A stretch of DNA of 64,000 bases from Acetobacteraceae bacterium (GCA_023511555.1 JAIMBG010000001.1:961-64960), one strand, 5' to 3'. Numbered from the stretch's first letter, positions 19,700-32,595 are shown. Numbers and translations: made by a program. Notes: a model not told the origin generated them from the letters alone.

Positions 19700-20953
19700 C
19701 TAAAGGCCGGCCCTGATCTCCACCCCTTCCCTGAGCCACCCCGCGATGAAGCACGCCGGGCTGCGGGAGCCCTGGGCGATCCACTCCCGCAGCAGCGCCC
19801 CGGCCTCCCTGCACCGGAACCACTCCCGTCCCAGGCGGCGCCGGAGGTCTGCAGTGAGCGCCGCAGAAAGGCAGGTGGAGAGGAGGTAGACGAGCCAGGA
19901 GTGCGCCGTGCCGGGCTCGGCCAGCCAGAACCCTGGTGAAAAGGGCGCGCTCAGCGCCTCCGCCTGCCCTCGGGCGTAGCCCTCCAGCGCCGCTGGGGCG
20001 TCCTCCCCGGCGTCCCGAGCGGCCTCCAGCGCGAACCGCCAGTTGGCCGCTGCAGCCCGGCGGGGCATCAGCCGGCTGAGCCGGGCCCAGCCGGAAAGCC
20101 CCGCCATCCAGGGGCCCGCCCAGGCGAGGTCACGCCCGAGCTGGCCCAGCAGGTGGGCGAAGCCCTCAGCCACCGCTATCCCGGACGTTCCCGTCCCCTT
20201 GGTCCCGGCGTGGGCGAACTGGAGCGCGTGCCCCGTCTCGTGCAGCAGCGTCACCACGTCGGCGTAGCGGCCGGAGAGCTCCACCGCTGCCACCGCCGCC
20301 CCGTTCTGCACTGAACACCTGCCACGCGAGGCCTGGCCCCGGCAGAGGAGGAGGCGCACCGGCATGAGTGCCCCCTCCAGCACCCCCATCTCCGCCAGCG
20401 TGTCTCCGATCCGGCCCACGGCCTCCCCCGGCGCCGGGGCCGCGGGCGGGCCCCCGTCCAGGAGGAACCGCGCCGCCGCGGCCAGGCTGGGGAAGGGCGG
20501 CGGCGGGTCTGCGGCCTCCAGCATCGCCCCGGCCAGGGCGCCGGTGTCGGAGGGCCCCAAGCCCAGGCGCTGGGCGCCGTGGCGCTCCAGCCAGGAGACA
20601 AGCCGCCGGAGCGGTCCGCCCGCAAACGCCCGGTACTGGCGCACCACCGCCTCTCCGGCAGCGGCCACCGCTGCGGCGAGCCCCCGCTCCCGCCGCTCCC
20701 CTTCGGGGTACGGTGCCGCCACCCACCGCAGGAGCTGGGTGCCCTGACCGGTCCAGCCCGTAAGCCTTCGCGCCACCCGGTGGAGGAGCTGGAACCGCGC
20801 GCTAAGCTCCTCTTCGCCGGCCGCGATGTTGGCCGCGTCCTCCGCCACCGCCCCGCCCAGCCCCGACGCCGCGATGAGCCGCAGGCTCCCCGCATCGGCC
20901 ACCGGGCTGCCCAGGGCGGGGAGCCGGGCCACCTCTTCCCACTCTATCCCCAT
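19700..20953 (-). CDS. HExxH zinc metallopeptidase (unassigned family)
   Basis: LLHETGHALQF (HExxH) with a downstream Glu candidate (AEGFAH); ~417 aa, cytoplasmic. Starts 6 nt after the queA stop. Confidence 0.55.
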   Translation of the reverse strand: MGIEWEEVARLPALGSPVADAGSLRLIAASGLGGAVAEDAANIAAGEEELSARFQLLHRVARRLTGWTGQGTQLLRWVAAPYPEGERRERGLAAAVAAAGEAVVRQYRAFAGGPLRRLVSWLERHGAQRLGLGPSDTGALAGAMLEAADPPPPFPSLAAAARFLLDGGPPAAPAPGEAVGRIGDTLAEMGVLEGALMPVRLLLCRGQASRGRCSVQNGAAVAAVELSGRYADVVTLLHETGHALQFAHAGTKGTGTSGIAVAEGFAHLLGQLGRDLAWAGPWMAGLSGWARLSRLMPRRAAAANWRFALEAARDAGEDAPAALEGYARGQAEALSAPFSPGFWLAEPGTAHSWLVYLLSTCLSAALTADLRRRLGREWFRCREAGALLREWIAQGSRSPACFIAGWLREGVEIRAGL

Positions 20954-20959
20954 CGGGGC

Positions 20960-21985
20960 TCACCTGATCAGCAGGGCGTCCCCGAAGTCGTAGAACCGGT
21001 AGCCGGCGTCCCGCGCCCGCCGGTAGCACTCCTTCATGAGGTCCACGCCGATGAGCGCCGCGGTGACCAGAAGGCCCGTGCTCCGGGGCGGATGGAGGTT
21101 GGTGACCAGCCCGGTGATGCATCGCACCCGGTACCCGGGGTACATGTAGAGGTCGGACATGCCCTTCATGGGGCGGACGCGGCCGGTCCCGTCCGCCGCG
21201 GTCTCCAGGGTGCGGGCGACGGTGGTCCCGATGGCTACCACCCGCTTCCCCGCGGCCCGGGCGCGGTTCACCGCTTCGGCGGTGTCGGGCGGCACCTCTA
21301 TTTCTTCGCCGTGCATCACGTGGTCCTCGACGTGCTCCACGGTTATCGGGGCTGAGCCCAGACCGATGTGGAGCGTGATGTATTTCATGTCGATGCCGGC
21401 CTGGGCCAGGCTGTCGATGACCCGTGGCGTGAAGTGCAGGCCGGCGGTGGGCGGCAGCCCCGACCCCGGCTCCCGGGCGTAGACCGTGTCGTAGAGCGCC
21501 CGCTCGCGGACCTTTTGGTCGGCGAACACCGGCAGGGCCAGCTCCCCGATCTTCTCCACCGCGGCGTAGAAGTCGCCCTCGCAGGTGAAGCGGATTATCC
21601 AGTGCGTCATGGGGCCGATCTGCTCCGGCTCCAGCAGCTCCCCGGTTACGCCCTCACCGAAGAACAGCCGCTCTCCGGGGCCCAGCCCCCTCGCCGGTCG
21701 TACCTGGCAGCACCACACGTCGGGCGCCCGCCGCGAGACCAGCACCACCAGGAGCTCGCGACCGTCGGCCCGCCGCCCCGGCAGACGGCAGGGGATGACC
21801 TGGCTGTCGTTGGCGACGAGCAGGTCTCCCGGGTCCAGGAAGCCCGCGATATCGCGAAAGATCGCGTGCTCTATCGCACCCGTGGCCCTGGTGAACACCA
21901 TGAGGCGGCACTGGTCCCGGTCGGCCAGGGGCACCCGGCCGATCTGCTCCACTGGCACGTCGATGCTGAGCTCGTCGACCCTCAT
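20960..21985 (-). CDS. queA: S-adenosylmethionine:tRNA ribosyltransferase-isomerase QueA (paralog 1)
   Basis: Collinear with E. coli QueA as I recall it (MRVDELSIDVP…YDTVYAREPGSGLPPTAGLHFT…VAIGTTVARTLE…YRFYDFGDALLI). ATG 21985 preferred; the track's 21994 is a GTG. Confidence 0.8.
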   Translation of the reverse strand: MRVDELSIDVPVEQIGRVPLADRDQCRLMVFTRATGAIEHAIFRDIAGFLDPGDLLVANDSQVIPCRLPGRRADGRELLVVLVSRRAPDVWCCQVRPARGLGPGERLFFGEGVTGELLEPEQIGPMTHWIIRFTCEGDFYAAVEKIGELALPVFADQKVRERALYDTVYAREPGSGLPPTAGLHFTPRVIDSLAQAGIDMKYITLHIGLGSAPITVEHVEDHVMHGEEIEVPPDTAEAVNRARAAGKRVVAIGTTVARTLETAADGTGRVRPMKGMSDLYMYPGYRVRCITGLVTNLHPPRSTGLLVTAALIGVDLMKECYRRARDAGYRFYDFGDALLIR

Positions 21986-22043
21986 CGCTCTCACTACCTC
22001 TATTAAGGGGTGGCTCTATGCGAAGCGGGGGCTAACTATCAGG

Positions 22044-22073
22044 CCCCGCACGCGCCTTGCGGCGCGCGCGGGG
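22044..22073 (-). other. Very stable GC hairpin (13-bp stem, GCAA loop) after the small ORF; candidate stabilizer/attenuator, no U-tract
   Basis: Minus-strand CCCCGCGCGCGCC-GCAA-GGCGCGTGCGGGG, 13 pairs with one G·U, starting 10 nt after the TAG of the 25-codon ORF. Confidence 0.35.
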
Positions 22074-22082
22074 AGCCGCGGC

Positions 22083-22160
22083 CTACATCAGCTTGCACGA
22101 CAAGGTAAGCTCCTTGAAGAGCTCCACCTTGGCGCACAGAGGCTTGACATAAGCCTTCAA
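22083..22160 (-). CDS. Candidate 25-aa precursor peptide, PqqA-like (MKAYVKPLCAKVELFKELTLSCKLM), TTG start
   Basis: TTG start 6 nt after a strong AAGGGAGGTG SD and 19 nt after the PqqD-like stop. Not in the ORF track (below its length cutoff). Resembles PqqA in the KP…E-x-T-L motif; a stable hairpin follows. Confidence 0.3.
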   Translation of the reverse strand: MKAYVKPLCAKVELFKELTLSCKLM

Positions 22161-22179
22161 CGGGTTCACCTCCCTTCTT

Positions 22180-22470
22180 TTAGGCGGGCGTCCCGCCCGA
22201 GAGCTGGACAAGGCCCCTCTCGAGCAGGACGCCTATGAGCTCTTTCACGTCTGCCTCGGCCGTCGCCGGGTCGCACTCAAACCCGGCGCAGATCTCCCTG
22301 ACCATGTCGGCGACAGTCGACTTGCTGTCTGCCAGCTCCCAGACCACGGCCGCCGTCGCGTTAAGCTGGTAGTAAGACTCGTTCTCCGGGTCCATGAGCA
22401 CAATGTCGTCGCCCACGTTGGTCCAGCGGATCCTCTCCGTCCGGGTCAGCACCGTGTTGGAATCAATCAT
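22180..22470 (-). CDS. PqqD-family protein (RiPP recognition element-like peptide chaperone)
   Basis: 96 aa; …WTNVGDDIVLMDPENESYYQLNATAAVVWELADSKSTVADMVREICAGFECDPATAEADVKELIGVLLERGLV is the PqqD/RRE pattern. GGAGGGAG RBS. Confidence 0.75.
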   Translation of the reverse strand: MIDSNTVLTRTERIRWTNVGDDIVLMDPENESYYQLNATAAVVWELADSKSTVADMVREICAGFECDPATAEADVKELIGVLLERGLVQLSGGTPA

Positions 22471-22489
22471 GCCCCGCCTCTCCCTCCGG

Positions 22490-23566
22490 TCAGATCATTA
22501 GGGTGGTGTCCCCAAACTCGTAAAAGCGGTACCTCTGCGCCACCGCCTCCCGGTAGGCCGAAAGCACGAGTTCCCGCCCGGCGAACGCCGCTACCAGCAG
22601 GAGCCGGGTGCTGCGGGGCTGGTGGAAGTTGCTGATGATGGCGTCGCAGGCCTTAAACCTAAAGCCCGGGTAGATGAACAGCCCCGCCCAGCCCGACCCG
22701 GCCCGCACTACGCCGTCGTCCCCCGTTGCTGTCTCCAGGGTGCGCACGCAGGTGGTGCCGCAGGCGAACACGCGGCCGCCCGCGGCGCGCCGGCGATTTA
22801 TCTCGGCCGCGGCCTGGGGAGACACCTCGTACCACTCGGGCAGCATGGTGTGCTGGGTATAGTCCTCCATCTCGATGGGCAGCGAGCTCACCCCCACGTG
22901 GAGCGTGAGCCGGGTTATGGCCGTGCCCTGGGAGGCGATCCTGTCCAGCAGTTCGGGGGTGAAGTGCCGGCCGGCGGCGGGAAGCTCCGTGGACCCCGGG
23001 TTTTGGGCGTACACCGTCTGGTACTGCTCGAAGTCCCTGGGCTCCCGGATATACATAGAGTAGGACGGGCGGCCCAGCTCGCTCAGCACCGGCCACAGCA
23101 GGTCAGGATCGCTGAACTCCACCCGCCAGGCCCGCGCCCCCACCTGCTCCACCAGCCGCCCGGAAAGCCTCTTGCCGAAGGTGAGGCGGAGCCCCTGGCG
23201 GGCCGCCCGCGGCGGCCGCACCAGGCAGTGCCAGGTGCCGTCGGGGCAGCGGGAGAAGATGTTGAGCGTAACCCGGGCCCCGTCGTCCCGGGTCCCGGGG
23301 AGGAGGCTGTTTATCACCCGCGAGTCGTTTATGACCAAGACGTCGCCGGGGAGGAGGTACTCCACGATGTCGCAGAAGCGGCGGTGCTCCAGGACGCCCC
23401 TTCGGCGGTGGATGACCAAAAGGCGCGACTGGTCGCGGCTTAACCCCTGGTTTTCCACCGGCTCCCGGGCTACGAGCTCCATGGGCAGGTCGAACTCGTA
23501 CTCTGAGAGCCTGTGAAGCCTGGCTTCCTGCGGGATGACGCTGGGGGTCGTGGCTTCACTGTTCAT
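22490..23566 (-). CDS. QueA-family ribosyltransferase-isomerase paralog 2, possibly recruited to a secondary pathway
   Basis: Full-length QueA homolog (…EFDLPMELVAREP…LLVINDSRVI…YQTVYAQNPGSTELPAAGRHFT…FACGTTCVRTLE…YRFYEFGDTTLMI). Overlaps the upstream kinase stop; lies 19 nt from PqqD. Confidence 0.75.
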   Translation of the reverse strand: MNSEATTPSVIPQEARLHRLSEYEFDLPMELVAREPVENQGLSRDQSRLLVIHRRRGVLEHRRFCDIVEYLLPGDVLVINDSRVINSLLPGTRDDGARVTLNIFSRCPDGTWHCLVRPPRAARQGLRLTFGKRLSGRLVEQVGARAWRVEFSDPDLLWPVLSELGRPSYSMYIREPRDFEQYQTVYAQNPGSTELPAAGRHFTPELLDRIASQGTAITRLTLHVGVSSLPIEMEDYTQHTMLPEWYEVSPQAAAEINRRRAAGGRVFACGTTCVRTLETATGDDGVVRAGSGWAGLFIYPGFRFKACDAIISNFHQPRSTRLLLVAAFAGRELVLSAYREAVAQRYRFYEFGDTTLMI

Positions 23567-24545
23567 GGGGGCTGCCCACCTCCCAGCTCAGGATCTCGTT
23601 GACTCGCCTTCCGGCGGCCGTGATGTGGAGCGAGGCGCGGTACTTGTCCGGGGTGAGGTGAAAGCAGGCTATCATCTGCCGGATCTCCTCCAGAAGGGCG
23701 TAGATAGCGCTGCGGCGGGGCCAGGACGCCGTCGCCGGCCGTCGTCTGCGGAAGGCCCGCTCCACCAGGGGATAAAAGTCGCCCCAGTTGGTGAACCCCG
23801 CCAGCTCTACGTCGGCATCGGCGAACTGCGCGTGCTCCAGGTCTATGACCCCCACGATGCTGGTCTGGCCGGGAGGTCCGTCGACCATGACGTTGGACAT
23901 GTTGGCCAGGTTGCCGTGGACGAAGGCCGGGCGGATCTCGGGGTCGTCGATGGCCCGGGCCGCGATCTCCTTGAGCTTGAGCAGCCTGTCCGCCGGTACC
24001 CCGGCCACAAAGCCCAGGTAGTTCAGGCGCAGAAACCCCCGCTCCCGGAAGAACGATGCCCAGGTGGGGAAGCCCTGCAGCAGCCCGCGATGATCGATCC
24101 AGCCGAACAGCGGCGCCTCGATCTCGGCCAGGTCGGCCAGCAGCTCCCCCATCTTCCCGGCCAGGCGCTCCCGCTCCGCGACGGTAAGCGTGTCCCAGGC
24201 CAGGTGGAGGGGCGTGCCCGGCATCTTCTCCATGAGCACGTATGCCCTGCCGGCGGCGCCCGCCTCCCCCGAGGCCCCATGGACCCGGGGCACCCGCACC
24301 CGGGACATCCCCAGCACCAGGCGGCTGAGGTGGGGTTCCTTGAGGAGCTGCTGTTGGTTCTCCAGCCGGGCATTCTCCGGCGCCACCTTCATGATGTAGG
24401 TGCCGGCGGTGCACTCCACCTCGTAGACCGTGTTGCAGCGGCCGCCCCCCAGCTCCTTCACCCCGGTGAGCTCACCGCCGAGGTGCCGTTCCACCGCCCG
24501 CCGGATAACGTCCCGGTCCACTTCGGCCTTCAGCGTGGACTCCAC
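23556..24545 (-). CDS. Phosphotransferase-family kinase (APH/choline-kinase-like fold)
   Basis: GTG 24545 after an AGGAGG RBS. N-lobe …ELGGGRCNTVYEVECTAGTYIMKV…, Brenner-like HGNLANMSNVMV, DxxxxN-type …VIDLEHAQFAD… Maximal ORF to 24770 is an antisense extension. Confidence 0.7.
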   Translation of the reverse strand: MESTLKAEVDRDVIRRAVERHLGGELTGVKELGGGRCNTVYEVECTAGTYIMKVAPENARLENQQQLLKEPHLSRLVLGMSRVRVPRVHGASGEAGAAGRAYVLMEKMPGTPLHLAWDTLTVAERERLAGKMGELLADLAEIEAPLFGWIDHRGLLQGFPTWASFFRERGFLRLNYLGFVAGVPADRLLKLKEIAARAIDDPEIRPAFVHGNLANMSNVMVDGPPGQTSIVGVIDLEHAQFADADVELAGFTNWGDFYPLVERAFRRRRPATASWPRRSAIYALLEEIRQMIACFHLTPDKYRASLHITAAGRRVNEILSWEVGSPHEQ

Positions 24546-24577: not shown

Positions 24578-25996
24578 CTAGGAGGCCAACACCAGTTGCG
24601 GAGCCGCCTCTCTCCACGCCCTGTCCCGGTCGAATCGCACATATAGCCCCTGGGGGTCGAAGTCCGCCGGCGGATGGCCCCCGTGGCAGAAGAAGAGGTA
24701 GAGGAAAAGGTCGGCGGTGAACCTCTGCAGCCTGTCGGGATAGAGCCACCTCAGCGGGTGGCTGTCCCACTCCACCCCCGGGAGCGCGGCGACGGCCCCG
24801 GCCACCGCCGCCCTGAGCCCCGCAGCGGCGTCGGGCAGGCCCACCTTGTTGCGGGATGCCACCGCCTCACCCAGGCCTCCGGGGAGCAGGGCCCGCACCA
24901 GGTCACGCAGGGGCCGCTTGGTGACCCCGCCGCGCACCAGTTCCCCGGGCGTCTGAGCCAGGGCGTAGTCGATCACCTGGGGGTCGAGGTAGGGAAAGGC
25001 CACCGGGGTGGGAGCCGCCTCCACGCGGGCGGTCCGCAGGTGAAGGTGGGGCAGCCGCTCGGTGAGGTTCATCCAGTAGAGCGCCCGGAACAGATCGGCG
25101 TTGCCCAGCCGCTCCCACTCCCCGATGCGGGCAGCCACCTCAGAGGCGCCTGGCACCTCGCCCCCCCGCGCCCGTAATAGGGCGTCCAGCCGCCGTCTCA
25201 GCCCCTCCACGTACAGCCGGGGGTGGGGGTAGATCCACCAGTACCCCGCGAAGAGTTCGTCAGCACCCTCGCCGCACAGCACCACCGGGACGGTGCCACG
25301 GACGGCGCCGCAGGCGGCCGCCACGCTGCCGGTCAGTATGCGGGGCGAGGCTATGAGCCGCACTACCTGGCACCACCTGTCCAGCGGGGAGCCGGCCGGC
25401 TCCACCATGACCTCCAGGCCCTGGATCACCAAATGCTGGCACACCCGGCGGGCCATGCCGCGGTCGGCCCGGCTGGACTCATCGCCGGATATGGCAGTGA
25501 CCGCCACCAGCGGCACGCTTGCCACCCGCGCCGCCCGGCGGGCCAGGACGGCCAAAAGCGTGGAGTCGACCCCGCCGGACAGCAGCACCGCTCCCCCGCC
25601 GTAGATTGCGGCCGAGACGGCGTTGTACAGCCTCGCCTCCAGGCCGGGTCCGTCGCCCCTTTCCGGAGCTGGGGGCGGGGGCGGCACTGACACTTCGACC
25701 TCCAGCCGCCCCCAGGGCGCAAACCGCGCCCTCACTGAGCCCCCCGGAGGCACCTGGCGCACGGCGCGGAAGACGGTGCGGGTCCCAGTGGGAAAGCCGA
25801 GGACGGCCTCCTCCACCAGCGCCGCGGAGTCCAGCCTGCGGTCCACGGCGGGATCAGCCAGGATCGCCGCCATCTCGTCGGCCCAGAGCAGGGTGCGGCC
25901 GTCACAGGTCAGAGCATAGTACAGCGCGTCCTGCCCGAACCAGCTTCGGGTCAAGACCAGCTCGCCGTCGCCCGAAAAGCGGCCCGCCCGGTTCAT
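24578..25996 (-). CDS. Asparagine synthetase (AsnB) C-terminal-domain homolog lacking the glutaminase domain; candidate ATP-dependent amide/lactam synthetase
   Basis: PP-loop LLSGGVDSTLLAVL and AsnB motif CGEGADELFAGYWW. N-terminus MNRAGRFSG… (ATG 25996) has no Cys2 nucleophile and only ~110 aa precede the PP-loop. Maximal ORF to 26419 is an antisense artefact. Confidence 0.7.
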   Translation of the reverse strand: MNRAGRFSGDGELVLTRSWFGQDALYYALTCDGRTLLWADEMAAILADPAVDRRLDSAALVEEAVLGFPTGTRTVFRAVRQVPPGGSVRARFAPWGRLEVEVSVPPPPPAPERGDGPGLEARLYNAVSAAIYGGGAVLLSGGVDSTLLAVLARRAARVASVPLVAVTAISGDESSRADRGMARRVCQHLVIQGLEVMVEPAGSPLDRWCQVVRLIASPRILTGSVAAACGAVRGTVPVVLCGEGADELFAGYWWIYPHPRLYVEGLRRRLDALLRARGGEVPGASEVAARIGEWERLGNADLFRALYWMNLTERLPHLHLRTARVEAAPTPVAFPYLDPQVIDYALAQTPGELVRGGVTKRPLRDLVRALLPGGLGEAVASRNKVGLPDAAAGLRAAVAGAVAALPGVEWDSHPLRWLYPDRLQRFTADLFLYLFFCHGGHPPADFDPQGLYVRFDRDRAWREAAPQLVLAS

Positions 25997-26013: not shown

Positions 26014-27555
26014 TCACTCCTGTCCGAGTTGGCCGGCCGCCGCGCCCGGGGCCGGGCCCCTGGCCCCCACCAGGGCCAGCCGGTCCACCTTCCCCGAAGG
26101 GGTGCGGGGGAGCGCGGGCAGGAACTCCACGTCGCGCGGAACCATGTGCTCCGGCAGCACCCTGCGGCAGTGCTCGAACAGCTCCGCCTGCTCCAGGGGC
26201 CGCCGGGCCACCACGAAGACCCGCACCACCTCGCCCCAGACCCGGTTCCTGTCCCACACCACGGCGGCCTCGGCCACATCGGGGTGGGCCAGGAGCGCCT
26301 TCTCGATCGTCTCTCCCGAGACCTGAACCCCGGCGAACTTCACCATGTTTCGCGTCCGCCCGATGAGCTCCAGGCGGCCCTGCTCGTCGAACCGCCCCAG
26401 GTCCCCGGCGTGGGCCCACTCGCCCCGGTAGTGCTCCGCCGTGTCCTGCGGGCGCCGGTAGTAGCCGCTGGAGAGCCGGCCGTCAGGTGTGCGCAGGGAG
26501 TGCACCCAGACCTCACCCACGCCGGGGGCAAGGCCCTCGGCGTCAGCGCGCGCCGGCAGGATGCGGATCTCGCACCCGGGAAGCGGCCGGCCGACGAACC
26601 TCCAGTTCGACTCAGGGTCGTCGTCCCAGTTGAGGCAGGCCTGGCTGTACTCCCCGGAGCCGTAGTTGTTGTGGAGGTGGTGGCCGAAGCGGGAGAAGAA
26701 CTCGTCCCCCATCTTGGGGAAGAACGACGCCCCCACCATGCAGAGCCGCGTCCTCGGCCAGGTCATGCGTCCCGGGGCGGCGTCCATCAGCGCCCGGTAC
26801 ATGAACCCGATCCCCACCAGGTAGGTGAGTGTGCCGGAGGCGCACGCCCGGAGCACCTCGCGGGGGTTGAACCGGTCCTGCAGCAGCACCGTGGCCTGCG
26901 ACATCAGCGCCGAGAGGAACACCTGGTCCCGGCCGAAGCCGTTGAGGAAGGGGAGAGCCCCCAGTATCACGTCGTCGCGGGTGCAGTAGGTCGACTCGGC
27001 GGAGTGAACCACCCTGGCCCGCAACTGGTCGCTGGTGATCATGATCAGCTTGGGGATGCCGGTGCTGCCCGAGGTGGGACAGAGGACGGCCGTCCCCGGC
27101 ACCGGCGGTTCGGGATCGGGGGCCCGCGCCTCGCGCTTCGCGGGCGCAGCAGCCCAGAGGCTCTCCCCGGACTCGTCCACCATCAGCATGCGGGTGGGCA
27201 GGGGGGCCAGGATGTCCTGAACCAGCCCGGCGTGCTCCGGGGTGGTGACCAGGTAGCGCGCCCCGCTCTCCTCTATCAGCGCCGCCATAACGTGGCGGTG
27301 GTAGCTGGGGCTGAGCGGGAGCATCACCGCCCGGATGCGGCTCAGCGCGCAGAACGCCACGGGGAACGCCGGGGTGTTGCTCAAGAGCAGCACCACGTGG
27401 TCGCCAGGGCTCACGCCCTGATGCCTGAAGTCCAGAAGACGGGCCTCGGCCCGGCGGAGGAACTCGGCGTAGGTGATTTCCGTCCCCCGCCACAGGTAGG
27501 CCGGGTGGCCGGGGCGCTCGGCGGCCGCCTTCTCCAGCCAGTCAAACGGCACCAC
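26014..27555 (-). CDS. ANL-superfamily adenylating enzyme (acyl/aryl-CoA ligase or carrier-protein-loading adenylation enzyme)
   Basis: A3-like TSGSTGIPK, A5-like NNYGSGE, A7/A8-like YRGEWAHAGDLGRFDEQGRLELIGRTRNMVKFAGVQV. GTG 27555 sits 7 nt after the ACP stop, with a GGGTGAGGGAG RBS. Confidence 0.75.
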   Translation of the reverse strand: MVPFDWLEKAAAERPGHPAYLWRGTEITYAEFLRRAEARLLDFRHQGVSPGDHVVLLLSNTPAFPVAFCALSRIRAVMLPLSPSYHRHVMAALIEESGARYLVTTPEHAGLVQDILAPLPTRMLMVDESGESLWAAAPAKREARAPDPEPPVPGTAVLCPTSGSTGIPKLIMITSDQLRARVVHSAESTYCTRDDVILGALPFLNGFGRDQVFLSALMSQATVLLQDRFNPREVLRACASGTLTYLVGIGFMYRALMDAAPGRMTWPRTRLCMVGASFFPKMGDEFFSRFGHHLHNNYGSGEYSQACLNWDDDPESNWRFVGRPLPGCEIRILPARADAEGLAPGVGEVWVHSLRTPDGRLSSGYYRRPQDTAEHYRGEWAHAGDLGRFDEQGRLELIGRTRNMVKFAGVQVSGETIEKALLAHPDVAEAAVVWDRNRVWGEVVRVFVVARRPLEQAELFEHCRRVLPEHMVPRDVEFLPALPRTPSGKVDRLALVGARGPAPGAAAGQLGQE

Positions 27556-27562: not shown

Positions 27563-27805
27563 TCACCCCTCTTCGGCCGGCCGGGAGGCACGCACCAGGT
27601 CCGCCCATGCCCTGGCGGACCGGGGCCGCCTGCGGCGAAGCTCATCCTCCTCGATCAGCACTCCGAAACGGCGCTCCAGCGAAACCACAAGCTGGATGAG
27701 GTCCATTGAGGCCAGCTCCAGCTCGCGATCGGGGTCGTCCCGGCCGTACGCCAGGTGAGGCATGGCCTCAAGCTCCGCCAAAACGCCTTCCAGGACCTGA
27801 TCCAA
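27563..27805 (-). CDS. Acyl/peptidyl carrier protein (phosphopantetheine attachment site)
   Basis: 80 aa; …ELASMDLIQLVVSLERRFGV… matches the carrier-protein helix-II Ser motif. TTG start after GGAGGGA, directly downstream of the SBP stop. Confidence 0.65.
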   Translation of the reverse strand: MDQVLEGVLAELEAMPHLAYGRDDPDRELELASMDLIQLVVSLERRFGVLIEEDELRRRRPRSARAWADLVRASRPAEEG

Positions 27806-27808: not shown

Positions 27809-29386
27809 TCATCCCTCCATGCCTGACCGGGCCGGGGCCCGGCCCCATCTCCACCGGTGAGCGTTCCAGGTGACCGGCGTCTGCGACGACCCGCCTGGCC
27901 GGAAGTTCAGCAGCCCCACCCGGTGGGCCGAGACCTCGATGCGGTGGTACAGCGGGAGCGAAGGGAGGTCCCGGGCGAACAGCTCCTGCTGTCGGTGCAG
28001 GAGCTCCCACCGCCGCCGCTCGTCGAACTCCTCCTCGGCCCGGGCCAAAAGCTCGTCCACCTCCGGGTTCCGCCAGCCGGCGAAGTTGTGGCCGGAGTAC
28101 CCGTTTTCCGGGCCGGGCACCTGCTGGGAGTGCCAGGCGCCGCGCCCGATGGTGTCGGGGTGCATGAGCCAGGCGTAGAGCAGCAGATCGAACTCCCGCC
28201 GGCGCGCAAACTCCCCAAACACCCGGCGGGGCTCGTCCTCTCGGACCTCCACGGCGGCGCCGAACGCCCTCCACTGCTCCTTTAGCTCCGCCGCCGCCCT
28301 TATCCTCGCCGGATCCCCGGCGGTGGTGGTGATGGTGAACGAAAGCGGCTTCCCGTCTCCGTCCGCCCAGGTCCCGTCCCGGAACTCGAACCCGCAGCCC
28401 TTAAGCAGCTCGGCCGCGCGGCGGGCGTCGCCGCCGGGAAGGCGCTGGGCCTTGTACCCGCGGTGCCTTTCCGGAAGCCAGGAATCGGCGAGCCGGCCTT
28501 TGCCCCCGGTCGCCGCCGCCACCACCCGGGAGCGGTCCACGGCCCAGGCGAGGGCGTGCCTTACCTCGCGCCGGCCCAGGTGGGGGTGGTCGAGGTTGAA
28601 GTCGATGCGTTCCACGGCCAGAGACGGCGTGAAGTGGACGCACACCCGCCCCCGGCCCGCCTCGGCCAGCCGGGCGGCCTGGCCCAGGGTAAGGTTGTTG
28701 GTGGCCATTACGTCAAGGTCGCCCCGGAGCAGCGCCGCCGCCATCTCCTCCGGGTCGGGGATGAACCGGAACGACAGCCCGTCCAGGGGCGGCCGTCCCT
28801 CGCAGAAGTCGGGCACGGCGGAAAGGTCTATGCGGTCCTTTGGCCTCCACTCCACGAAGCGGAAGGGGCCGGTGGTGAGCGGCCGCTTGCCGAACTCCAG
28901 CAGGTGGAATCCGGCCGGGTCCTTGAGGTACGCCGGCTCGAGCACGTGCCGGGGGAGCATCAGGTAGTAGTGATTGGCCGTCGCCAGCCGGCGCTTCCAG
29001 GTGACCACCAGGGTATACGGGTCGGGGCACTGCATGTCCTCGATCTGGGGGTCGTACCAGCGCGAGTCTATCTGCACCCTGGGGTCCATCCTCAGCCGCC
29101 AGGTCCAGACTGCGTCCTGGGTGGTGAGGGGCACCCCGTCGTGCCAGCGGTAGCCGCGCTTCCAGTGGTAGGTGATGCGCATGCCGCCGCCGGGCAGGAA
29201 CTCCCACCCCCGCCCTGGGGTGGGGATGCGCCGGAGCACCCGGGGGTGGGCCCGGCCGCGGTCATCGTAGTGCAGCGGCCGGGTGGTCATGGCCCCCAGG
29301 ATGTCCGCGGCCGAGGCCATGGCCTGCATACCGGGGAACAGGCTGTCCGGTTCCTGGCTGAGCCCTATCCTGGCCAGCCCGCCCAT
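27809..29386 (-). CDS. Solute-binding protein family 5 (DppA/OppA-like) paralog without a signal peptide
   Basis: SBP_bac_5 architecture throughout. N-terminus MGGLARIGLSQEPDSLFPG… has no hydrophobic signal or lipobox, and the upstream gene leaves no room for one. Confidence 0.75.
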   Translation of the reverse strand: MGGLARIGLSQEPDSLFPGMQAMASAADILGAMTTRPLHYDDRGRAHPRVLRRIPTPGRGWEFLPGGGMRITYHWKRGYRWHDGVPLTTQDAVWTWRLRMDPRVQIDSRWYDPQIEDMQCPDPYTLVVTWKRRLATANHYYLMLPRHVLEPAYLKDPAGFHLLEFGKRPLTTGPFRFVEWRPKDRIDLSAVPDFCEGRPPLDGLSFRFIPDPEEMAAALLRGDLDVMATNNLTLGQAARLAEAGRGRVCVHFTPSLAVERIDFNLDHPHLGRREVRHALAWAVDRSRVVAAATGGKGRLADSWLPERHRGYKAQRLPGGDARRAAELLKGCGFEFRDGTWADGDGKPLSFTITTTAGDPARIRAAAELKEQWRAFGAAVEVREDEPRRVFGEFARRREFDLLLYAWLMHPDTIGRGAWHSQQVPGPENGYSGHNFAGWRNPEVDELLARAEEEFDERRRWELLHRQQELFARDLPSLPLYHRIEVSAHRVGLLNFRPGGSSQTPVTWNAHRWRWGRAPARSGMEG

Positions 29387-29407
29387 GTCTTCAGCCCTCC
29401 CGTGCCC

Positions 29408-31042
29408 TCAGCTCCCCCACCGCCAGGTGTGCGCGTTCCAGGGGAGGTAGGTCCCCGAGAGCCCCACCGGCCTGACCCCAAGCAGGCTGCGCTTTGAGGT
29501 CTGGAGGTGGATGCGGAAGTAAAGGGGGAGGGAGGGGAGGTCGGCGGCGAACTGCTCCTGCTGCCGGTGGAACAGCTCGATCCGCTTCGCGGTGTCAAGC
29601 TCCCGCAGGACCGCGGCGATGAGGCGGTCGTTCTCCGCGCTGCGCCAGCCGCAGAAGTTCTGGCCGGTGTAGTTGTTATCCGGGGACGGTATCTGGCTGG
29701 AGTGCCACAGCCCGAAGCCCGGGGCGGTGGGGCTCATCACCCACGACAGCATGACCAGTTGGAACTGCCTTTTGCGCAGCCGGTCGGCGATAAGCACCTG
29801 GGCCGGCAGCTCCTCCAGCTTCAGCTCGATGCCGGCCCGGGCCAGGTCCTCTGTCATGGCGGCCGCGATTCGCCGCCGGAGCTGGTTTCCGGCGGTGGTG
29901 GACAGCGTGAGGGTGAGCCTCTCGCCGCCGGCGTTCCGGCGGATGCCGTCGGGGCCGCGGCGCCAGCCGGCCTGGTCCAGGAGCTGCGAAGCGCGGTCGG
30001 GCTCGTACTCGTACCGCGGAACGCCGGGGTGGAAAGCGTAGTATCTTTCGCCCAGCCAGGTGTGGGCCACGTTCACCCGGCCCCGGAACTCGCGCTTGAC
30101 CGCGGCCTCGCGGTTGAACGCATGGAGCAGCGCCCGCCGCACCCGGACGTCGGAGAGCACCGGGTCGTCGAGGTTGACGTCGATGTGCTCCCACTCGATG
30201 GCCGGGCTGTAGTGGGTGGCGACAAAGTCGCCCGCCGCCTCCTCTATCTCCGCCATGTCCTCCAGGGAGAAGTTGTTGAGCTCGGTGCAGTCCACCTCGC
30301 CCGCGATCTGGGCCCTCTTCAGCGAGGCGGCGTCGGGGTAGAAGCGGTAGACCAGCCGCTTTATCGTGGCCGGACCCTCCACGAAGTCTTCCACCGCCCG
30401 GACGCTCAGCTCCTCCCCGCGCCTCCAGTAGTCGAAGCGGTAGGGGCCGTTGCCCATCGGGTGGTCCCAGAGGGGGACCTGGTCGAGCCTGTCCCTTCCC
30501 TTGAGCAGCGGCTCATAGACCCTGCGGGGTACGAACGACGCCCCATATGCGGCGCCGAAGAACAGGTCGGCGTGAGGCAGCCGCTCTTTCCAGTGGACGT
30601 CGAACTCCAGGTCGTTCTTCACCACGATGCTTTCTATCTTGGCCTCTATCCACCGGGTAACGATGGGCAGCCGGGGGTCGAGGCAGAACTGCCAGCCGTA
30701 GAGCACGTCGTCGGCCGTCACCGGGGTGCCGTCGTGCCACTTGTAGCCGGGACGGAGGCGGTAGTGCATTATCATCCGGTCTCCGTGGACCTCCCAGGAG
30801 CCGTCCTCCAGGGAGGGGAGCTTCTCGGCCACGCGGGCGTATGGCTTCCAGTCGTCGTTCCACTCGATGAGCGCGCAGAACATGGTGTTCATCACCGCTC
30901 CGGCGGCCACCGTGCTCTGCCCCTTTATGGCCATCCCGTCGGGCTCCTGCGCCATCCCGATGACCACCGTCTTTTCGTCTATCACCGGGCCCTTTATGGG
31001 CATCCGCCTCATCCCTCCCTCGGTTCTTCGGACCACACCCAC
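29408..31042 (-). CDS. Solute-binding protein family 5 paralog without a signal peptide
   Basis: Paralog of the neighbouring genes (…IGMAQEPDGMAIKG…). No signal peptide; overlaps the upstream paralog's 3' end. Confidence 0.75.
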   Translation of the reverse strand: MGVVRRTEGGMRRMPIKGPVIDEKTVVIGMAQEPDGMAIKGQSTVAAGAVMNTMFCALIEWNDDWKPYARVAEKLPSLEDGSWEVHGDRMIMHYRLRPGYKWHDGTPVTADDVLYGWQFCLDPRLPIVTRWIEAKIESIVVKNDLEFDVHWKERLPHADLFFGAAYGASFVPRRVYEPLLKGRDRLDQVPLWDHPMGNGPYRFDYWRRGEELSVRAVEDFVEGPATIKRLVYRFYPDAASLKRAQIAGEVDCTELNNFSLEDMAEIEEAAGDFVATHYSPAIEWEHIDVNLDDPVLSDVRVRRALLHAFNREAAVKREFRGRVNVAHTWLGERYYAFHPGVPRYEYEPDRASQLLDQAGWRRGPDGIRRNAGGERLTLTLSTTAGNQLRRRIAAAMTEDLARAGIELKLEELPAQVLIADRLRKRQFQLVMLSWVMSPTAPGFGLWHSSQIPSPDNNYTGQNFCGWRSAENDRLIAAVLRELDTAKRIELFHRQQEQFAADLPSLPLYFRIHLQTSKRSLLGVRPVGLSGTYLPWNAHTWRWGS

Positions 31043-32595
31043 TCCTGCGCGTTCCAGGTGACCGGCCCCACCGACATCCCGGTGGGACGGATGCCTTTCA
31101 GACCGCGGCGGTGGGCCACCACCTCCGCCCTCATGAGCAGCGGAAGGCAGGGCAGGTCGCGGGCGAAGACCGCCTGCTGCTCCCGCATCACCGCCGCCCG
31201 GCGGTCGTCGTCCAGCTCTCGCAGCCCCCGGGACAGCAGGGCGTCGTTTTCCGCGCTCCGCCAGCCGGGGTAGTTGCGGCCCTGCCAGGCGTTCTGGGGG
31301 CTGGGGACCTGAGACGAGTGCCAGGCCCCGAACCCCATGGCGTGAAGGTGCATCACCCAGGAGTACATGGCCAGGTGCTCGAACCGCCGCCGCGGCAGAA
31401 GCTCGGTAAACAGTTCCCGGGCCGGGACCCAGCCGGTCTCGCAGGCCACGCCTATCTCCCGCCAGGCCGAGACCAGCCCCTCGGCCAGCCGCTCCCTGAG
31501 CTTGTCGCCCGCGGTGGTAAGCAGCCGCAGCGGGCTCTTGCCGGCGGGGATGAGCCGTCCGGAGCGCTCCTCCCAGCCCGCCTCGAGCAGCAGCGACCGC
31601 GCCCTCCCGGGGTCGCGCCCCAGAGCCCTGAGCACCGGGTCGTGGTCGGGATGCCCGGTGGGCAGCCAGCTCGTCGCCACCTGGAGCCGGCCCGCCGACG
31701 CCTGCCGCACCAGCTCCTCCCGGTCCACCGCCAGGGCCAGGCCCAGCCGGGCCCGGGGGTCGGAGAGCGCCGGGGAGTCGCAGTTGAAGTCCAGCCTTTC
31801 CACGATGAGCGCGGGCTTGTAAACGAATCTGAACTCCGGAAAGGCGTCCTCCAGGTCCAGAACCTCGTCAAGCGACATCGACGCGCCCGAGACCACGTCG
31901 ACCTCGCCCCGTCGCCAGCCCGCGACGAGCTCCTCCGGCCCCGGGTAGAAGCGGAAGACTATCCGCTCCGCCGCCCGGCCCCGGGCGGGGGGCGGGGGCG
32001 GCGCCATGCGGACCACCTCGATGAACTCCCCTGGAACCCAGCGGGAGAACCGGAACGGACCCATGCCCACCGGGCTCCGGGCGAAGGGAAGCCGCGGGAG
32101 CGAGGTGGGGTCCCTGTCGAAAGCCTCCGCCAGGAGGTGGCGGGGCAGCGCCCGGTGGCACATGTTGGCGTTGGGGGTCATCTCACTCCAGTCGACCACC
32201 AGGGTGAGGGGGTCCGGGCAGTGCATCCCGGCCACCTTGACGTCGTCGGACTTCGTCACCACGGACTTTACGGCGGGGTGCGTCCACATCCGCCATGTCC
32301 ACTCGACGTCGTAGGCCTGGAGCGGATGCCCGTCGTGCCACCGCACCCCCGGCCGGATGCGGTAGGTGAGCCGCATGCGGCCGTCGGGGAACACCTCCCA
32401 GTCGCCGCCCGATACCGAAGGGATGCGCTCCACCCAGGTGGGGAAAGGCCGCCAGTCGTCGCCGTACTGCACCGGCCGGGTGTAGAGCGTCGCCAGCACC
32501 AGCCCCGAGGCGTAAAGCGGCGTAAACGCCAGCAGCAGGTTGTCCGGCTCCTGCGTCACCCCGATGACCACCGTGCCCTCGTCACCGCGACCCAT
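31009..32595 (-). CDS. Solute-binding protein family 5 paralog without a signal peptide
   Basis: MGRGDEGTVVIGVTQEPDNLLLAF…; starts 22 nt after the 5'-nucleotidase stop; no signal peptide. Confidence 0.75.
   Translation of the reverse strand: MGRGDEGTVVIGVTQEPDNLLLAFTPLYASGLVLATLYTRPVQYGDDWRPFPTWVERIPSVSGGDWEVFPDGRMRLTYRIRPGVRWHDGHPLQAYDVEWTWRMWTHPAVKSVVTKSDDVKVAGMHCPDPLTLVVDWSEMTPNANMCHRALPRHLLAEAFDRDPTSLPRLPFARSPVGMGPFRFSRWVPGEFIEVVRMAPPPPPARGRAAERIVFRFYPGPEELVAGWRRGEVDVVSGASMSLDEVLDLEDAFPEFRFVYKPALIVERLDFNCDSPALSDPRARLGLALAVDREELVRQASAGRLQVATSWLPTGHPDHDPVLRALGRDPGRARSLLLEAGWEERSGRLIPAGKSPLRLLTTAGDKLRERLAEGLVSAWREIGVACETGWVPARELFTELLPRRRFEHLAMYSWVMHLHAMGFGAWHSSQVPSPQNAWQGRNYPGWRSAENDALLSRGLRELDDDRRAAVMREQQAVFARDLPCLPLLMRAEVVAHRRGLKGIRPTGMSVGPVTWNAQEWVWSEEPREG

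What the first reader, a model, noticed from the sequence alone, without database searches (positions are those of the whole stretch)
20960..23566. Two full-length QueA paralogs bracket a PqqD-like RRE and a short peptide ORF
QueA normally acts on preQ1-tRNA. It transfers the ribosyl moiety of SAM to a primary amine to make an epoxy-cyclopentanediol (epoxyqueuosine).

Here two QueA homologs (20960-21985 and 22490-23566) sit 19-20 nt either side of a PqqD-family gene and a 25-codon ORF. At least one QueA may therefore act on a peptide or small-molecule amine, installing a SAM-derived epoxy-carbocycle. I cannot tell which copy, if either, is the housekeeping one.
Basis: inference. Interest (0 to 1): 0.8.

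Follow-up and report, generated by a model that had tools for sequence, protein, structure and literature searches.

The report
QueA-type enzymes recruited to a peptide pathway
Two diverged copies of a tRNA-modifying enzyme (QueA) sit in a conserved operon with a peptide-binding chaperone and a 25-residue peptide gene, which points to an undescribed peptide natural-product pathway that may use S-adenosylmethionine as a ribose donor.

Summary
On the minus strand lie QueA-2 (22490-23566), a PqqD-type RRE (22180-22470), a 25-codon ORF (22083-22160) and QueA-1 (20960-21985).

- **Peptide:** it is a genuine gene. It has a Shine-Dalgarno site, is always 25 aa, and is conserved in loci whose QueA is only 48% identical (K-x-Y-x-K-P...LFKE-x-TLSCK-xx).
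- **Co-occurrence:** every close homologue of this PqqD with readable upstream DNA, and every QueA of the "upstream" clade examined, shows the QueA-PqqD pair (nine contig groups, about four lineages).
- **Divergence:** neither window copy looks like a housekeeping QueA. Of 61 columns at least 99% conserved in 228 conventional QueAs, they keep 47 and 45; conventional ones keep 58-61. There is no tgt nearby, whereas their nearest conventional relatives lie in queA-tgt operons.
- **RRE and leader:** the RRE model best matches lasso-peptide B1 proteins. The peptide has a lasso-like leader (Y-17, P-14, T-2), leaving a 5-residue core, SCKxx.
- **Context:** acyl-AMP ligase, carrier protein, Asn-synthetase-like protein, kinase, HExxH protein, transglutaminase-like protein, oxidoreductases, MFS exporters and an AlkZ-like glycosylase.

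Most likely this is a new RiPP-type pathway in which QueA-derived enzymes put a SAM-derived epoxy-cyclopentanediol on a peptide amine. The chemistry is inferred, not shown. I found no literature on it.

The parts
22490..23566 (-). QueA-2 ('upstream' clade): diverged SAM ribosyltransferase-isomerase homologue, always directly followed by the PqqD gene
   Evidence: PF02547 2e-105. NCBIfam QueA 332 bits against a cutoff of 324. Keeps 45 of 61 near-invariant QueA columns. Clade signature motifs listed. Adjacent to PqqD in all nine contig groups examined.
22180..22470 (-). PqqD-family RiPP recognition element (RRE), lasso-B1-like
   Evidence: PF05402 4e-19. Best NCBIfam hit is the lasso PqqD chaperone, below cutoff. 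AF2 model has pLDDT 87. Best PDB matches are TbiB1 and a lasso B1 bound to leader peptides, TM 0.76-0.86.
22083..22160 (-). 25-codon precursor peptide MKAYVKPLCAKVELFKELTLSCKLM, not annotated in NCBI
   Evidence: SD site plus TTG start. A 25-aa homologue is found in L001/L012, L004, L008 and L017. A related 33-aa peptide with YxKP and CK is found in L015/L016. Synonymous codon changes are documented.
22044..22073 (-). 13-bp G+C hairpin just after the peptide stop codon; possible attenuator or mRNA-stabilising stem
   Evidence: -48.8 kcal/mol for the 105-nt spacer, z = -2.75. It has no U-tract. It is not significant in L004.
20960..21985 (-). QueA-1 ('downstream' copy): second diverged QueA homologue
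   Evidence: PF02547 2e-97. NCBIfam 326 bits against a cutoff of 324. Keeps 47 of 61 near-invariant columns. 41% identical to QueA-2. A second QueA is also present in L001 and L004.
23556..24545 (-). APH-family kinase; stop overlaps the QueA-2 start
   Evidence: PF01636 1e-21. Start placed. Ortholog in L001, absent from L004.
24578..25996 (-). Asparagine-synthetase-like ATP-dependent ligase or cyclase homologue, with no N-terminal Cys nucleophile
   Evidence: PF00733 8e-26. Weak NCBIfam hits to macrolactam and lasso cyclases, far below cutoff. Present only in the window and L001 type.
26014..27555 (-). Acyl/aryl-AMP ligase (adenylating enzyme)
   Evidence: PF00501 and PF13193. Best NCBIfam hits are fatty-acyl ligases. 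Homologues sit beside QueA or PqqD in L004, L008 and L007.
27563..27805 (-). Stand-alone carrier protein (PP-binding)
   Evidence: PF00550 2.5e-4. The counterpart in L004/L008 lies just after the peptide gene.
19700..20953 (-). 417-aa protein with an HETGH motif; candidate zinc peptidase
   Evidence: No Pfam hit at threshold. Weak M3 match across HExxH, E = 0.13. No PDB relative. AF2 single-sequence model unusable. L015 carries a TldD/PmbA pair in the equivalent place.
17629..19644 (-). 671-aa transglutaminase-like superfamily protein
   Evidence: 117 relatives found. 23 of 70 hit Transglut_core. Cys368 is conserved in 62 of 70, but the family His column is Arg here. A homologue precedes QueA in L007.
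16873..17613 (-). Short-chain dehydrogenase/reductase
   Evidence: PF00106 2e-59. Ortholog in L001.
15671..16876 (-). GFO/IDH/MocA NAD(P)-dependent oxidoreductase
   Evidence: PF01408 and PF22725. 36% identical homologue in the L004 cluster.
14493..15674 (-). AlkZ-like DNA glycosylase with an H-A-Q motif; possible self-resistance gene at the cluster edge
   Evidence: PF06224 2e-52. The only PDB hit is AlkZ 5UUJ (5e-23), and H-A-Q aligns to AlkZ Q-A-Q. Motif classes are defined in PMC9040887. Conserved in L001.
27809..32595 (-). Three tandem SBP_bac_5 paralogues (27809-29386, 29408-31042, 31009-32595) that start at the mature domain with no signal peptide
   Evidence: All three are conserved in L001. 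Role unknown.
32618..37765 (-). 5'-nucleotidase-like phosphoesterase (32618-34108) and two MFS_1/MFS_3 transporters (34105-35451, 36356-37765); likely export. Cluster membership is tentative
   Evidence: An MFS_3 homologue ends the L004 cluster.

Best explanation
The region is the core of a RiPP-type biosynthetic operon of an undescribed class, spanning about 14.5-37.8 kb on the minus strand.

Proposed pathway:
1. The 25-residue peptide is the substrate.
2. Its N-terminal K-x-Y-x-K-P segment is bound by the lasso-B1-like PqqD protein.
3. PqqD presents the conserved C-terminal segment (LFKE-x-TL-SCK-xx) to the QueA-2-type enzyme.
4. That enzyme keeps the QueA catalytic core but has a rebuilt substrate side. 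It uses S-adenosylmethionine as a ribosyl donor to alkylate a peptide primary amine.
5. The most likely amine is the epsilon-amine of the conserved Lys in the C-K motif, the chemical analogue of the aminomethyl group of preQ1.
6. The product would be an N-(2,3-epoxy-4,5-dihydroxycyclopentyl) adduct (+114.03 Da), with release of adenine and methionine.
7. The second paralogue (QueA-1) performs a second, related transfer. One candidate site is the alpha-amine of Ser21, exposed if the leader is cut after T19-L20.
8. The NAD(P) oxidoreductases, the kinase, the Asn-synthetase-like ligase and the acyl-AMP ligase/carrier protein then tailor the product.
9. A metallopeptidase removes the leader, and MFS pumps export the product.
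10. The epoxide could make the product an electrophile, which would fit the adjacent AlkZ-like glycosylase.

Shown: gene content, the conserved peptide, QueA-PqqD co-occurrence, divergence of both QueAs, and the RRE fold.

Inferred: that the peptide is the QueA substrate, which amine is modified, the chemistry, and the bioactivity.
For: 1. QueA-PqqD adjacency, with gaps of 9-38 nt, holds in every locus examined, across about four lineages with otherwise different tailoring genes. QueA is the only enzyme common to all of them, which makes it the RRE-dependent enzyme.
2. All PqqD homologues scoring above 110 bits whose upstream DNA could be read are preceded by this QueA type. Weaker PqqD hits (P0246, P0248) are not.
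3. The peptide is conserved with coding-type substitution, has a constant length of 25 aa, and has an invariant C-K.
4. Both QueAs retain the core residues: R44, R48, D75, N80, H201-F-T, H223, E244, G-T-T 270-272, R275, E278, N313, H315, P317, S319 and F-G-D. They replace motifs that are 100% conserved in 228 conventional QueAs:
   - PLPPYI becomes SYSMYI in QueA-2 and ALPVFA in QueA-1.
   - AAPTAGLHFT becomes ELPAAGRHFT.
   - GLGTFRPV becomes GVSSL-PI.
   - NFHLPxSTL becomes NFHQPRSTR.
   - FSFGDAM becomes YEFGDTT or YDFGDAL.
5. The window has no tgt, no deazaguanine genes and no preQ1 riboswitch. The nearest conventional QueAs lie in queA-tgt(-yajC-secDF) operons.
6. The RRE model best matches lasso B1 proteins solved with their leaders. 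Y4, P7 and T19 reproduce the lasso leader spacing of -17, -14 and -2 (PMC10368454).
7. Both cluster types encode sugar-type or cyclitol-type NAD(P) oxidoreductases, an exporter, an adenylating enzyme and a carrier protein.
8. The AlkZ-like gene carries the BGC-associated H-Phi-Q motif.
Against: - There is no biochemical evidence of any kind.
- Both paralogues still pass NCBI's QueA equivalog cutoffs, though by only 2-8 bits on NF001140 and 15-17 bits on TIGR00113. They are 47-48% identical to genuine QueAs, more than to each other at 41%.
- Monophyly of all cluster QueAs has only 55% NJ support, and the two 'downstream' copies do not group together.
- Whether the genome has a third, housekeeping queA could not be checked.
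- The site of modification is a guess. The whole stretch VELFKELTLSCK is conserved, so the leader/core boundary is uncertain.
- The lasso-type T(-2) spacing fails in the L015 peptide.
- The AlkZ-like gene sits at the cluster edge and is shared only with the close relative L001.
- The transglutaminase-like protein lacks the family His.
- The family is rare: about 8 PqqD clusters at 90% identity, and no hit in 185,579 species-representative genomes with the peptide pattern.
Confidence: 0.6

Rival explanations
1. The QueA paralogues do ribosyl-transfer chemistry, but on a small-molecule or carrier-protein-tethered amine loaded by the acyl-AMP ligase onto the PP-binding protein. In this reading the peptide and PqqD serve another step: as a scaffold on which the small molecule is built, as in pearlin-type pathways, or as the substrate of other enzymes.
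For: - An adenylating enzyme and a stand-alone carrier protein are conserved in both cluster types. In L004 the carrier gene lies between the peptide and the second QueA.
- No acyltransferase that would join the two branches was seen.
- Peptidases (an HExxH protein here, TldD/PmbA in L015) could release a small product.
- MFS exporters suit small molecules.
Against: - QueA-2-type genes are always immediately followed by PqqD, including in L015/L016, where no ligase or carrier is visible in the sequenced stretch.
- Across all lineages the RRE has no other common enzyme partner.
Confidence: 0.2
2. The QueA homologues have kept the fold but changed chemistry. They might transfer another part of SAM, or serve as non-catalytic peptide-binding or scaffolding subunits, for example as a heterodimer in which only one copy is active.
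For: - 14-16 of 61 near-invariant positions have changed, including a conserved His (hk H242 becomes L/G/M in the upstream clade) and several Arg residues.
- The two copies are conserved together in two cluster types.
Against: - About 45 near-invariant core positions are retained in every one of the 11 sequences, including the charged and polar ones. This argues for retained catalysis.
- Sugar-type and cyclitol-type oxidoreductases accompany the QueAs.
Confidence: 0.12
3. Both genes are ordinary tRNA-modifying QueAs, one or both housekeeping, that happen to lie in or were duplicated into this operon. The link to PqqD and the peptide would then be incidental or regulatory.
For: - Both pass the NCBIfam QueA equivalog cutoffs and are annotated as QueA by NCBI.
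- Both are full length, and net charge and pI are the same as in conventional QueAs.
Against: - The association recurs in about four lineages down to 47-48% identity.
- Divergence falls at positions invariant in 228 conventional QueAs.
- There is no tgt nearby, while the nearest conventional relatives are tgt-linked.
Confidence: 0.05

Closest known systems
QueA, tRNA preQ1(34) S-adenosylmethionine ribosyltransferase-isomerase (PF02547; structures 1VKY, 1YY3, 1WDI)
   Same: - Same fold and length.
- 47-48% identity to genuine queA-tgt-linked enzymes.
- About 45 of 61 near-invariant residues are retained.
- By inference, the same use of SAM as a ribosyl donor to a primary amine.
   Different: - Encoded in a peptide-pathway operon, next to an RRE rather than tgt.
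- Several family-invariant motifs are replaced in a clade-specific way.
- There is a 4-residue insertion near the N-terminus and a one-residue deletion in the GTFRPV motif.
- Two paralogues are present.
- The presumed substrate is a peptide amine rather than preQ1 in a tRNA anticodon loop.
Lasso peptide biosynthesis (B1 RRE, B2 transglutaminase-like protease, C Asn-synthetase-like cyclase)
   Same: - A discrete PqqD-type RRE whose model best matches TbiB1 and a lasso B1.
- A leader with Y(-17), P(-14) and T(-2) spacing.
- The window-type cluster also has an Asn-synthetase homologue, a transglutaminase-superfamily protein and a kinase, as some lasso clusters do.
   Different: - The core would be only 5 residues, with no Asp/Glu ring acceptor, so a lasso fold is impossible.
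- The Asn-synthetase and transglutaminase-like genes are missing from the L004-type cluster.
- The transglutaminase-like protein lacks the family His.
- The conserved enzyme partner of the RRE is QueA.
PqqD-dependent small-peptide pathways (PQQ: PqqA/D/E; mycofactocin: MftA/B/C)
   Same: A very short, highly conserved precursor (about 25-30 aa) is presented by a PqqD-family chaperone to a SAM-using enzyme. High conservation of the whole peptide suggests a single defined product rather than a diversifying antibiotic family.
   Different: The SAM-using enzyme here is not a radical SAM enzyme but a QueA homologue. The peptide sequence is unrelated.
AlkZ-like (AZL) glycosylase self-resistance in genotoxin gene clusters (azinomycin B, hedamycin, trioxacarcin)
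   Same: An HTH_42/AlkZ-like gene with the (Q/H)-Phi-Q motif lies next to a biosynthetic operon whose inferred product would carry an epoxide.
   Different: Known examples are polyketide or NRPS products in Actinobacteria. Here the link is positional only, and it is conserved only in the close relative L001. The L004 type has a DinB_2 protein instead.

Membership tests
QueA (tRNA preQ1(34) SAM ribosyltransferase-isomerase) | Full-length Queuosine_synth domain (PF02547) | tested here: met
   2e-97 and 2e-105, profile positions 1-322 covered. PDB hits are 1VKY, 1YY3 and 1WDI.
QueA (tRNA preQ1(34) SAM ribosyltransferase-isomerase) | Score above the curated equivalog cutoffs (NF001140, TIGR00113) | tested here: met
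   Met, but only marginally on NF001140: 326.1 and 332.0 bits against a cutoff of 324. On TIGR00113: 284 and 282 bits against 267.
QueA (tRNA preQ1(34) SAM ribosyltransferase-isomerase) | Retention of the residues that are near-invariant across conventional QueAs | tested here: not met
   47 and 45 of 61 columns that are at least 99% conserved. 228 conventional QueAs keep 58-61.
QueA (tRNA preQ1(34) SAM ribosyltransferase-isomerase) | Housekeeping genomic context (queA next to tgt, yajC, secDF, ruvAB) | tested here: not met
   The 64-kb window has no tgt. Both genes are inside the peptide operon. The nearest conventional relatives P0033 and P0124 are tgt-linked.
QueA (tRNA preQ1(34) SAM ribosyltransferase-isomerase) | Converts preQ1-tRNA to epoxyqueuosine-tRNA | not testable with these tools
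   Needs an enzyme assay or complementation of a queA mutant.
Lasso peptide system | Discrete PqqD-type B1 RRE | tested here: met
   PF05402. The best NCBIfam hit is the lasso PqqD chaperone, though below cutoff. Fold matches TbiB1 and a lasso B1.
Lasso peptide system | Leader with YxxPxL at -17 to -12 and Thr at -2 | tested here: inconclusive
   Y4, P7 and T19 fit the spacing in all four 25-mers. Position -12 is L or I in L004/L008 only. The L015 peptide does not fit.
Lasso peptide system | B2 transglutaminase-like Cys protease with a Cys-His-Asp triad | tested here: inconclusive
   The 671-aa protein belongs to a family in which 23 of 70 members hit Transglut_core. The Cys is kept, but the family His column is Arg. 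The gene is absent from L004.
Lasso peptide system | Asn-synthetase-like macrolactam cyclase (C protein) | tested here: inconclusive
   An Asn_synthase homologue is present, but it scores 18.7 bits against a cutoff of 525 for the lasso cyclase model. It is absent from L004-type clusters.
Lasso peptide system | Core of about 15 residues or more, with an Asp/Glu acceptor at position 7-9 for the ring | tested here: not met
   The predicted core SCKLM has 5 residues and no acidic residue.
RRE-dependent RiPP gene cluster (generic) | Short conserved precursor gene next to an RRE and a modifying enzyme, with a peptidase and an exporter | tested here: met
   The peptidase assignment is weak in the window (HETGH motif only).
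RRE-dependent RiPP gene cluster (generic) | A modified peptide product is made | not testable with these tools
   Needs expression and mass spectrometry.
AlkZ-like (AZL) self-resistance glycosylase | HTH_42/AlkZ-like domain with a (Q/H)-Phi-Q catalytic motif (not Q-Phi-D of YcaQ-like proteins) | tested here: met
   PF06224 2e-52. H-A-Q aligns with AlkZ Q-A-Q. Motif definitions come from PMC9040887.
AlkZ-like (AZL) self-resistance glycosylase | Functionally part of the biosynthetic cluster | tested here: inconclusive
   Same strand, adjacent to the last oxidoreductase, and conserved in L001. L001 is a close relative, and the L004 type lacks the gene.

The most novel reading that the evidence does not exclude
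This is the founding member of a new RiPP class in which enzymes evolved from the tRNA-modifying QueA, guided by a lasso-type RRE, use SAM as a ribosyl donor. They install one or two epoxy-dihydroxycyclopentyl groups on amines of a five-residue core (Lys epsilon-NH2 and possibly the new N-terminus). The result would be an epoxide-armed, possibly DNA-alkylating peptide, against which the producer protects itself with an AlkZ-like glycosylase. It would be the first use of SAM ribosyl-transfer chemistry outside queuosine biosynthesis.
Probability: 0.3. Interest if true: 0.92.

Novelty: new variant of a known kind. Interest (0 to 1): 0.8.

Why it matters
QueA's reaction is described as unique to queuosine biosynthesis (PMC9092360, PMC1282579). 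It transfers and rearranges the ribose of SAM into an epoxy-cyclopentanediol. Finding QueA descendants wired to an RRE and a conserved precursor peptide would have four consequences.

- It would extend this chemistry from RNA to peptides.
- It would define a new RiPP class and a new way to make a carbocyclic, epoxide-bearing warhead.
- It would give a tractable minimal system (peptide, PqqD, QueA, SAM) for studying a mechanism that has never been seen with bound substrates.
- It flags an annotation problem. NCBI's pipeline names both proteins as genuine QueA and misses the peptide gene, so such clusters are invisible to standard genome-mining rules.

Tried and rejected
1. **Net charge and pI as a proxy for lost tRNA binding.** The cluster QueAs (-11 to +1) fall inside the conventional range (mean -4.8, sd 4.4), so this was uninformative.
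2. **Peptide-derived degenerate DNA patterns.** They gave 0 hits in GTDB species-representative genomes. The JGI metagenome set gave only two contigs, both of the L001 lineage. The family is rare, and no named organism was obtained.
3. **Weaker PqqD hits.** P0246 and P0248 lie in unrelated contexts and were excluded.
4. **The 417-aa and 671-aa proteins.**
   - Neither has a Pfam or NCBIfam hit at threshold.
   - PDB profile searches were empty.
   - The single-sequence AF2 model of the 417-aa protein was unusable, pLDDT 38.
5. **The idea that the 671-aa protein is an active lasso-B2-type protease.** This was downgraded because the family His column is Arg in the window and the position is also non-His in L001.
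6. **A preQ1 or SAM riboswitch linking the operon to queuosine metabolism.** None was found; the only hit was a glycine riboswitch elsewhere.
7. **Promoter and terminator scans.** Results did not differ from shuffled sequence.
8. **Fused QueA-PqqD proteins among the longer hits.** The extensions are low-complexity tails.
9. **Orthology of the two 'downstream' QueAs (window and L004).** Not supported: 38% identity and 12% bootstrap.
10. **Literature searches.** QueA with RiPP, QueA with PqqD, 'QueA-like', PF02547, and ribosyltransferase-isomerase with RiPP all found nothing relevant.

Full report
**1. What is there**

The region lies in a long run of minus-strand genes. Reading 5' to 3' on that strand:

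| Window coordinates | Gene |
|---|---|
| 36356-37765 and 34105-35451 | two MFS transporters |
| 32618-34108 | 5'-nucleotidase-like protein |
| 27809-32595 | three SBP_bac_5 paralogues with no signal peptide |
| 27563-27805 | PP-binding carrier protein |
| 26014-27555 | acyl-AMP ligase |
| 24578-25996 | Asn-synthetase homologue |
| 23556-24545 | APH-family kinase |
| 22490-23566 | QueA-2 |
| 22180-22470 | PqqD |
| 22083-22160 | 25-codon ORF |
| 20960-21985 | QueA-1 |
| 19700-20953 | 417-aa HETGH protein |
| 17629-19644 | 671-aa protein |
| 16873-17613 | SDR |
| 15671-16876 | GFO/IDH/MocA oxidoreductase |
| 14493-15674 | AlkZ-like protein |

- Both QueAs are full-length PF02547 proteins (2e-97 and 2e-105).
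- The gaps QueA-2 to PqqD and PqqD to peptide are each 19 nt.
- The gap from the peptide to QueA-1 is 97 nt and contains a 13-bp G+C hairpin.

**2. The peptide is a real gene**

It has a strong Shine-Dalgarno site and a TTG start. Homologues of exactly 25 codons, each with GGAGG-type sites and GTG starts, occur in other contigs.

| Locus | Peptide |
|---|---|
| window | MKAYVKPLCAKVELFKELTLSCKLM |
| L001/L012 | VKAYMKPACDKVELFKELTLSCKLL |
| L004 | VKSYRKPELKSVELFKEVTLSCKMT |
| L008 | MKTYSKPGIKPIDLFKEVTLSCKVS |
| L017 | as L008, but ending KIS |

- Many codon differences are synonymous, and Ser21 switches between TCG and AGC.
- A more distant lineage (L015/L016) has a 33-aa peptide, VKKKPYTKPQAKKVTTKASIAGLAMACCKITT(H/L). 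It shares K-x-Y-x-K-P-x3-K-V and a C-K near the C-terminus.
- NCBI does not annotate the peptide: MCL6449687, -688 and -689 are QueA-1, PqqD and QueA-2.

**3. The association is conserved**

- **Close relatives.** QueA-2's closest relatives (77% and 76% identity) lie in an identical gene order on 263-267-kb contigs (L001/L002) and on L003 and L012.
- **L004-L006 and L008/L009.** The next relatives (48% identity) lie here, in the order DinB_2, acyl-AMP ligase, QueA, PqqD, peptide and carrier protein. The longer L004-L006 contigs continue with a B12-radical SAM, a second QueA and an AKR/ferredoxin protein. L004 alone runs on to an SQHop-cyclase-like protein, GFO/IDH/MocA and MFS_3.
- **L007.** P0013 is flanked by a homologue of the 671-aa protein, PqqD and an acyl-AMP ligase.
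- **L015/L016.** P0016 is flanked by a TldD/PmbA pair, PqqD, the peptide and a UDP-sugar-dehydrogenase-type enzyme.
- **PqqD profile search.** It found only eight clusters scoring above 110 bits. All seven with readable upstream DNA follow a QueA with the clade signature (L017 and L018 included). Weaker hits are unrelated.

QueA is therefore the only enzyme partner of this RRE common to all lineages.

**4. Neither QueA is a conventional one**

I aligned the cluster QueAs with 228 other QueAs recovered by the two searches. Of these, P0033 and P0124 were checked and lie in queA-tgt and era-queA-tgt-yajC-secDF contexts.
- The conventional set has 61 columns that are at least 99% conserved. Conventional sequences keep 58-61 of them.
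- The 11 cluster-linked QueAs keep 41-50. QueA-1 keeps 47 and QueA-2 keeps 45.

The core is retained in all 11: R44, R48, D75, N80, H-F-T 201-203, H223, E244, G-T-T, R275, E278, N313, H315, P317, S319 and F-G-D.

Replaced motifs:

| Conventional motif | Upstream clade (QueA-2 type) | QueA-1 |
|---|---|---|
| PLPPYI | (S/A)(Y/T)SMY(I/A) | ALPVFA |
| GSxAAPTAGLHFT | GSTELPAAGRHFT | not reported |
| HVGLGTFRPV | HVGVSSL-PI | not reported |
| the MH of HxMHxE | L, G or M | not reported |
| NFHLPxSTL | NFHQPRSTR | NFHPPRSTG |
| FSFGDAM | YEFGDTT | YDFGDAL |

Phylogeny and similarity:
- In an NJ tree the seven upstream-type QueAs form a clade (68% of 200 bootstraps).
- All 11 cluster QueAs group together with 55% support.
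- The window and L004 downstream copies do not pair.
- QueA-1 and QueA-2 are 41% identical to each other and 47-48% identical to P0033.

Other points:
- The window has no third QueA and no tgt, and no preQ1 riboswitch.
- No SAM- or RNA-bound QueA structure exists (PMC1282579), so contact residues cannot be named.

**5. The RRE and leader are lasso-like**

- **RRE model.** The PqqD model (8-sequence alignment, pLDDT 87) best matches TbiB1 bound to TbiA leaders (5V1V/5V1U) and a lasso B1-leader complex (6JX3). TM-scores are 0.75-0.86, ahead of PqqD itself.
- **Lasso leader rule.** Lasso leaders carry YxxPxL at -17 to -12 and Thr at -2 (PMC10368454).
- **Fit to the 25-mers.** In all four sequence variants, Y4, P7 and T19 fit this spacing exactly. 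That places the cut after L20 and leaves a core S-C-K-x-x.
- **Not a lasso peptide.** A five-residue core with no acidic residue cannot form one.
- **Other lasso-type genes.** The lasso-type C gene (the Asn-synthetase homologue) and the transglutaminase-like gene are present only in the window/L001 type.
- **The 671-aa protein.** Its family belongs to the transglutaminase-like superfamily (23 of 70 members hit Transglut_core). Its Cys is conserved, but the family His is Arg here.

I read this as a pathway that borrowed lasso-type leader recognition.

**6. Other context**

- **Shared between cluster types.** Both have the acyl-AMP ligase (28-30% identity), the carrier protein, GFO/IDH/MocA (36%) and MFS_3 (26%).
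- **AlkZ-like protein.** Its only PDB relative is AlkZ (5UUJ), and it carries H-A-Q where AlkZ has Q-A-Q. (Q/H)-Phi-Q marks the gene-cluster-associated AZL subfamily that protects producers of DNA-alkylating agents (PMC9040887).
- **Why that matters.** The QueA reaction product is an epoxide, so this is suggestive. It rests on position only, and on conservation in a close relative.
- **L004 type.** It carries a DinB_2 protein instead.

**7. Mechanism proposed**

Steps marked *inferred* are not shown by any result here.
1. PqqD binds the K-x-Y-x-K-P leader.
2. QueA-2 transfers and isomerises the ribosyl part of SAM onto a peptide primary amine. The best candidate is the conserved Lys of the C-K motif. 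The adduct is +114.03 Da, and adenine and methionine are released (*inferred*).
3. QueA-1 does a second transfer, possibly on the alpha-amine freed by leader removal (*inferred*).
4. Oxidoreductases, the kinase, the Asn-synthetase-like ligase and the ligase/carrier pair tailor the product (*inferred*).
5. A metallopeptidase and MFS pumps finish the pathway (*inferred*).

Rival readings are:
- a carrier-protein-bound or small-molecule acceptor;
- altered or lost catalysis;
- ordinary tRNA QueAs.

**8. Novelty**

No paper in the searchable library links QueA or PF02547 to RiPPs or PqqD. Reviews describe QueA's reaction as unique to queuosine. No NCBIfam model covers the peptide or lifts this PqqD above a cutoff.

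I rate it a new variant of a known kind: an RRE-dependent RiPP-type cluster with an unprecedented class-defining enzyme.

Confidence in the genomic inference is high. Confidence in the chemistry is moderate.

Noticed in passing
window 58166-59578 and 60721-62100 (+); 45523-48353 (+): The contig encodes SpoIIIAA and SpoIIIAE and a split glycine dehydrogenase (gcvPA/gcvPB). Its QueAs are closest to Bacillota sequences. NCBI nevertheless labels the MAG 'Acetobacteraceae bacterium'. The contig looks like a high-G+C (about 72%) spore-forming Bacillota, so it is mis-binned or mislabelled.
   Followed up: partly
window 43554-43740 (+): A tandem glycine riboswitch (two aptamers, 64 and 48 bits) lies upstream of the glycine-cleavage genes.
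   Followed up: no
window 27809-32595 (-): Three tandem SBP_bac_5 (Opp/Dpp-type solute-binding) paralogues start directly at the mature domain with no signal peptide or lipobox. All three are conserved in L001. No ABC permease or ATPase genes were identified between them or flanking them. Cytoplasmic peptide-binding proteins inside a peptide-pathway operon are unexplained; they could act in immunity by sequestration, or as chaperones.
   Followed up: partly
window 14493-15674 (-): An AlkZ-like DNA glycosylase with the H-A-Q (AZL-type) catalytic motif lies directly downstream of the cluster's last oxidoreductase. It is followed by branched-chain-type ABC transporter genes.
   Followed up: partly
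window 15671-16876 (-): The GFO/IDH/MocA oxidoreductase is about 60 residues longer than its L001 ortholog (401 against 337 aa). The extra length is an Ala/Gly/Pro/Ser-rich low-complexity insertion in the C-terminal half.
   Followed up: no
L004 4635-5366 and L008 7646-8359: The distant cluster type carries a DinB_2-family protein (a family that includes thiol S-transferases) just upstream of the ligase, where the window type has none. If the product is an electrophile, this could be a detoxifying or thiol-adding enzyme.
   Followed up: no
window 37640-39724 (+) and 41240-42505 (+): These large ORFs (694 and 421 aa) have no Pfam match. In this G+C-rich sequence they may be real genes or spurious ORFs.
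   Followed up: no
window 21000-24000: G+C content dips to 0.66-0.70 over the QueA/PqqD/peptide core, against 0.71-0.76 in the flanking cluster genes.
   Followed up: no
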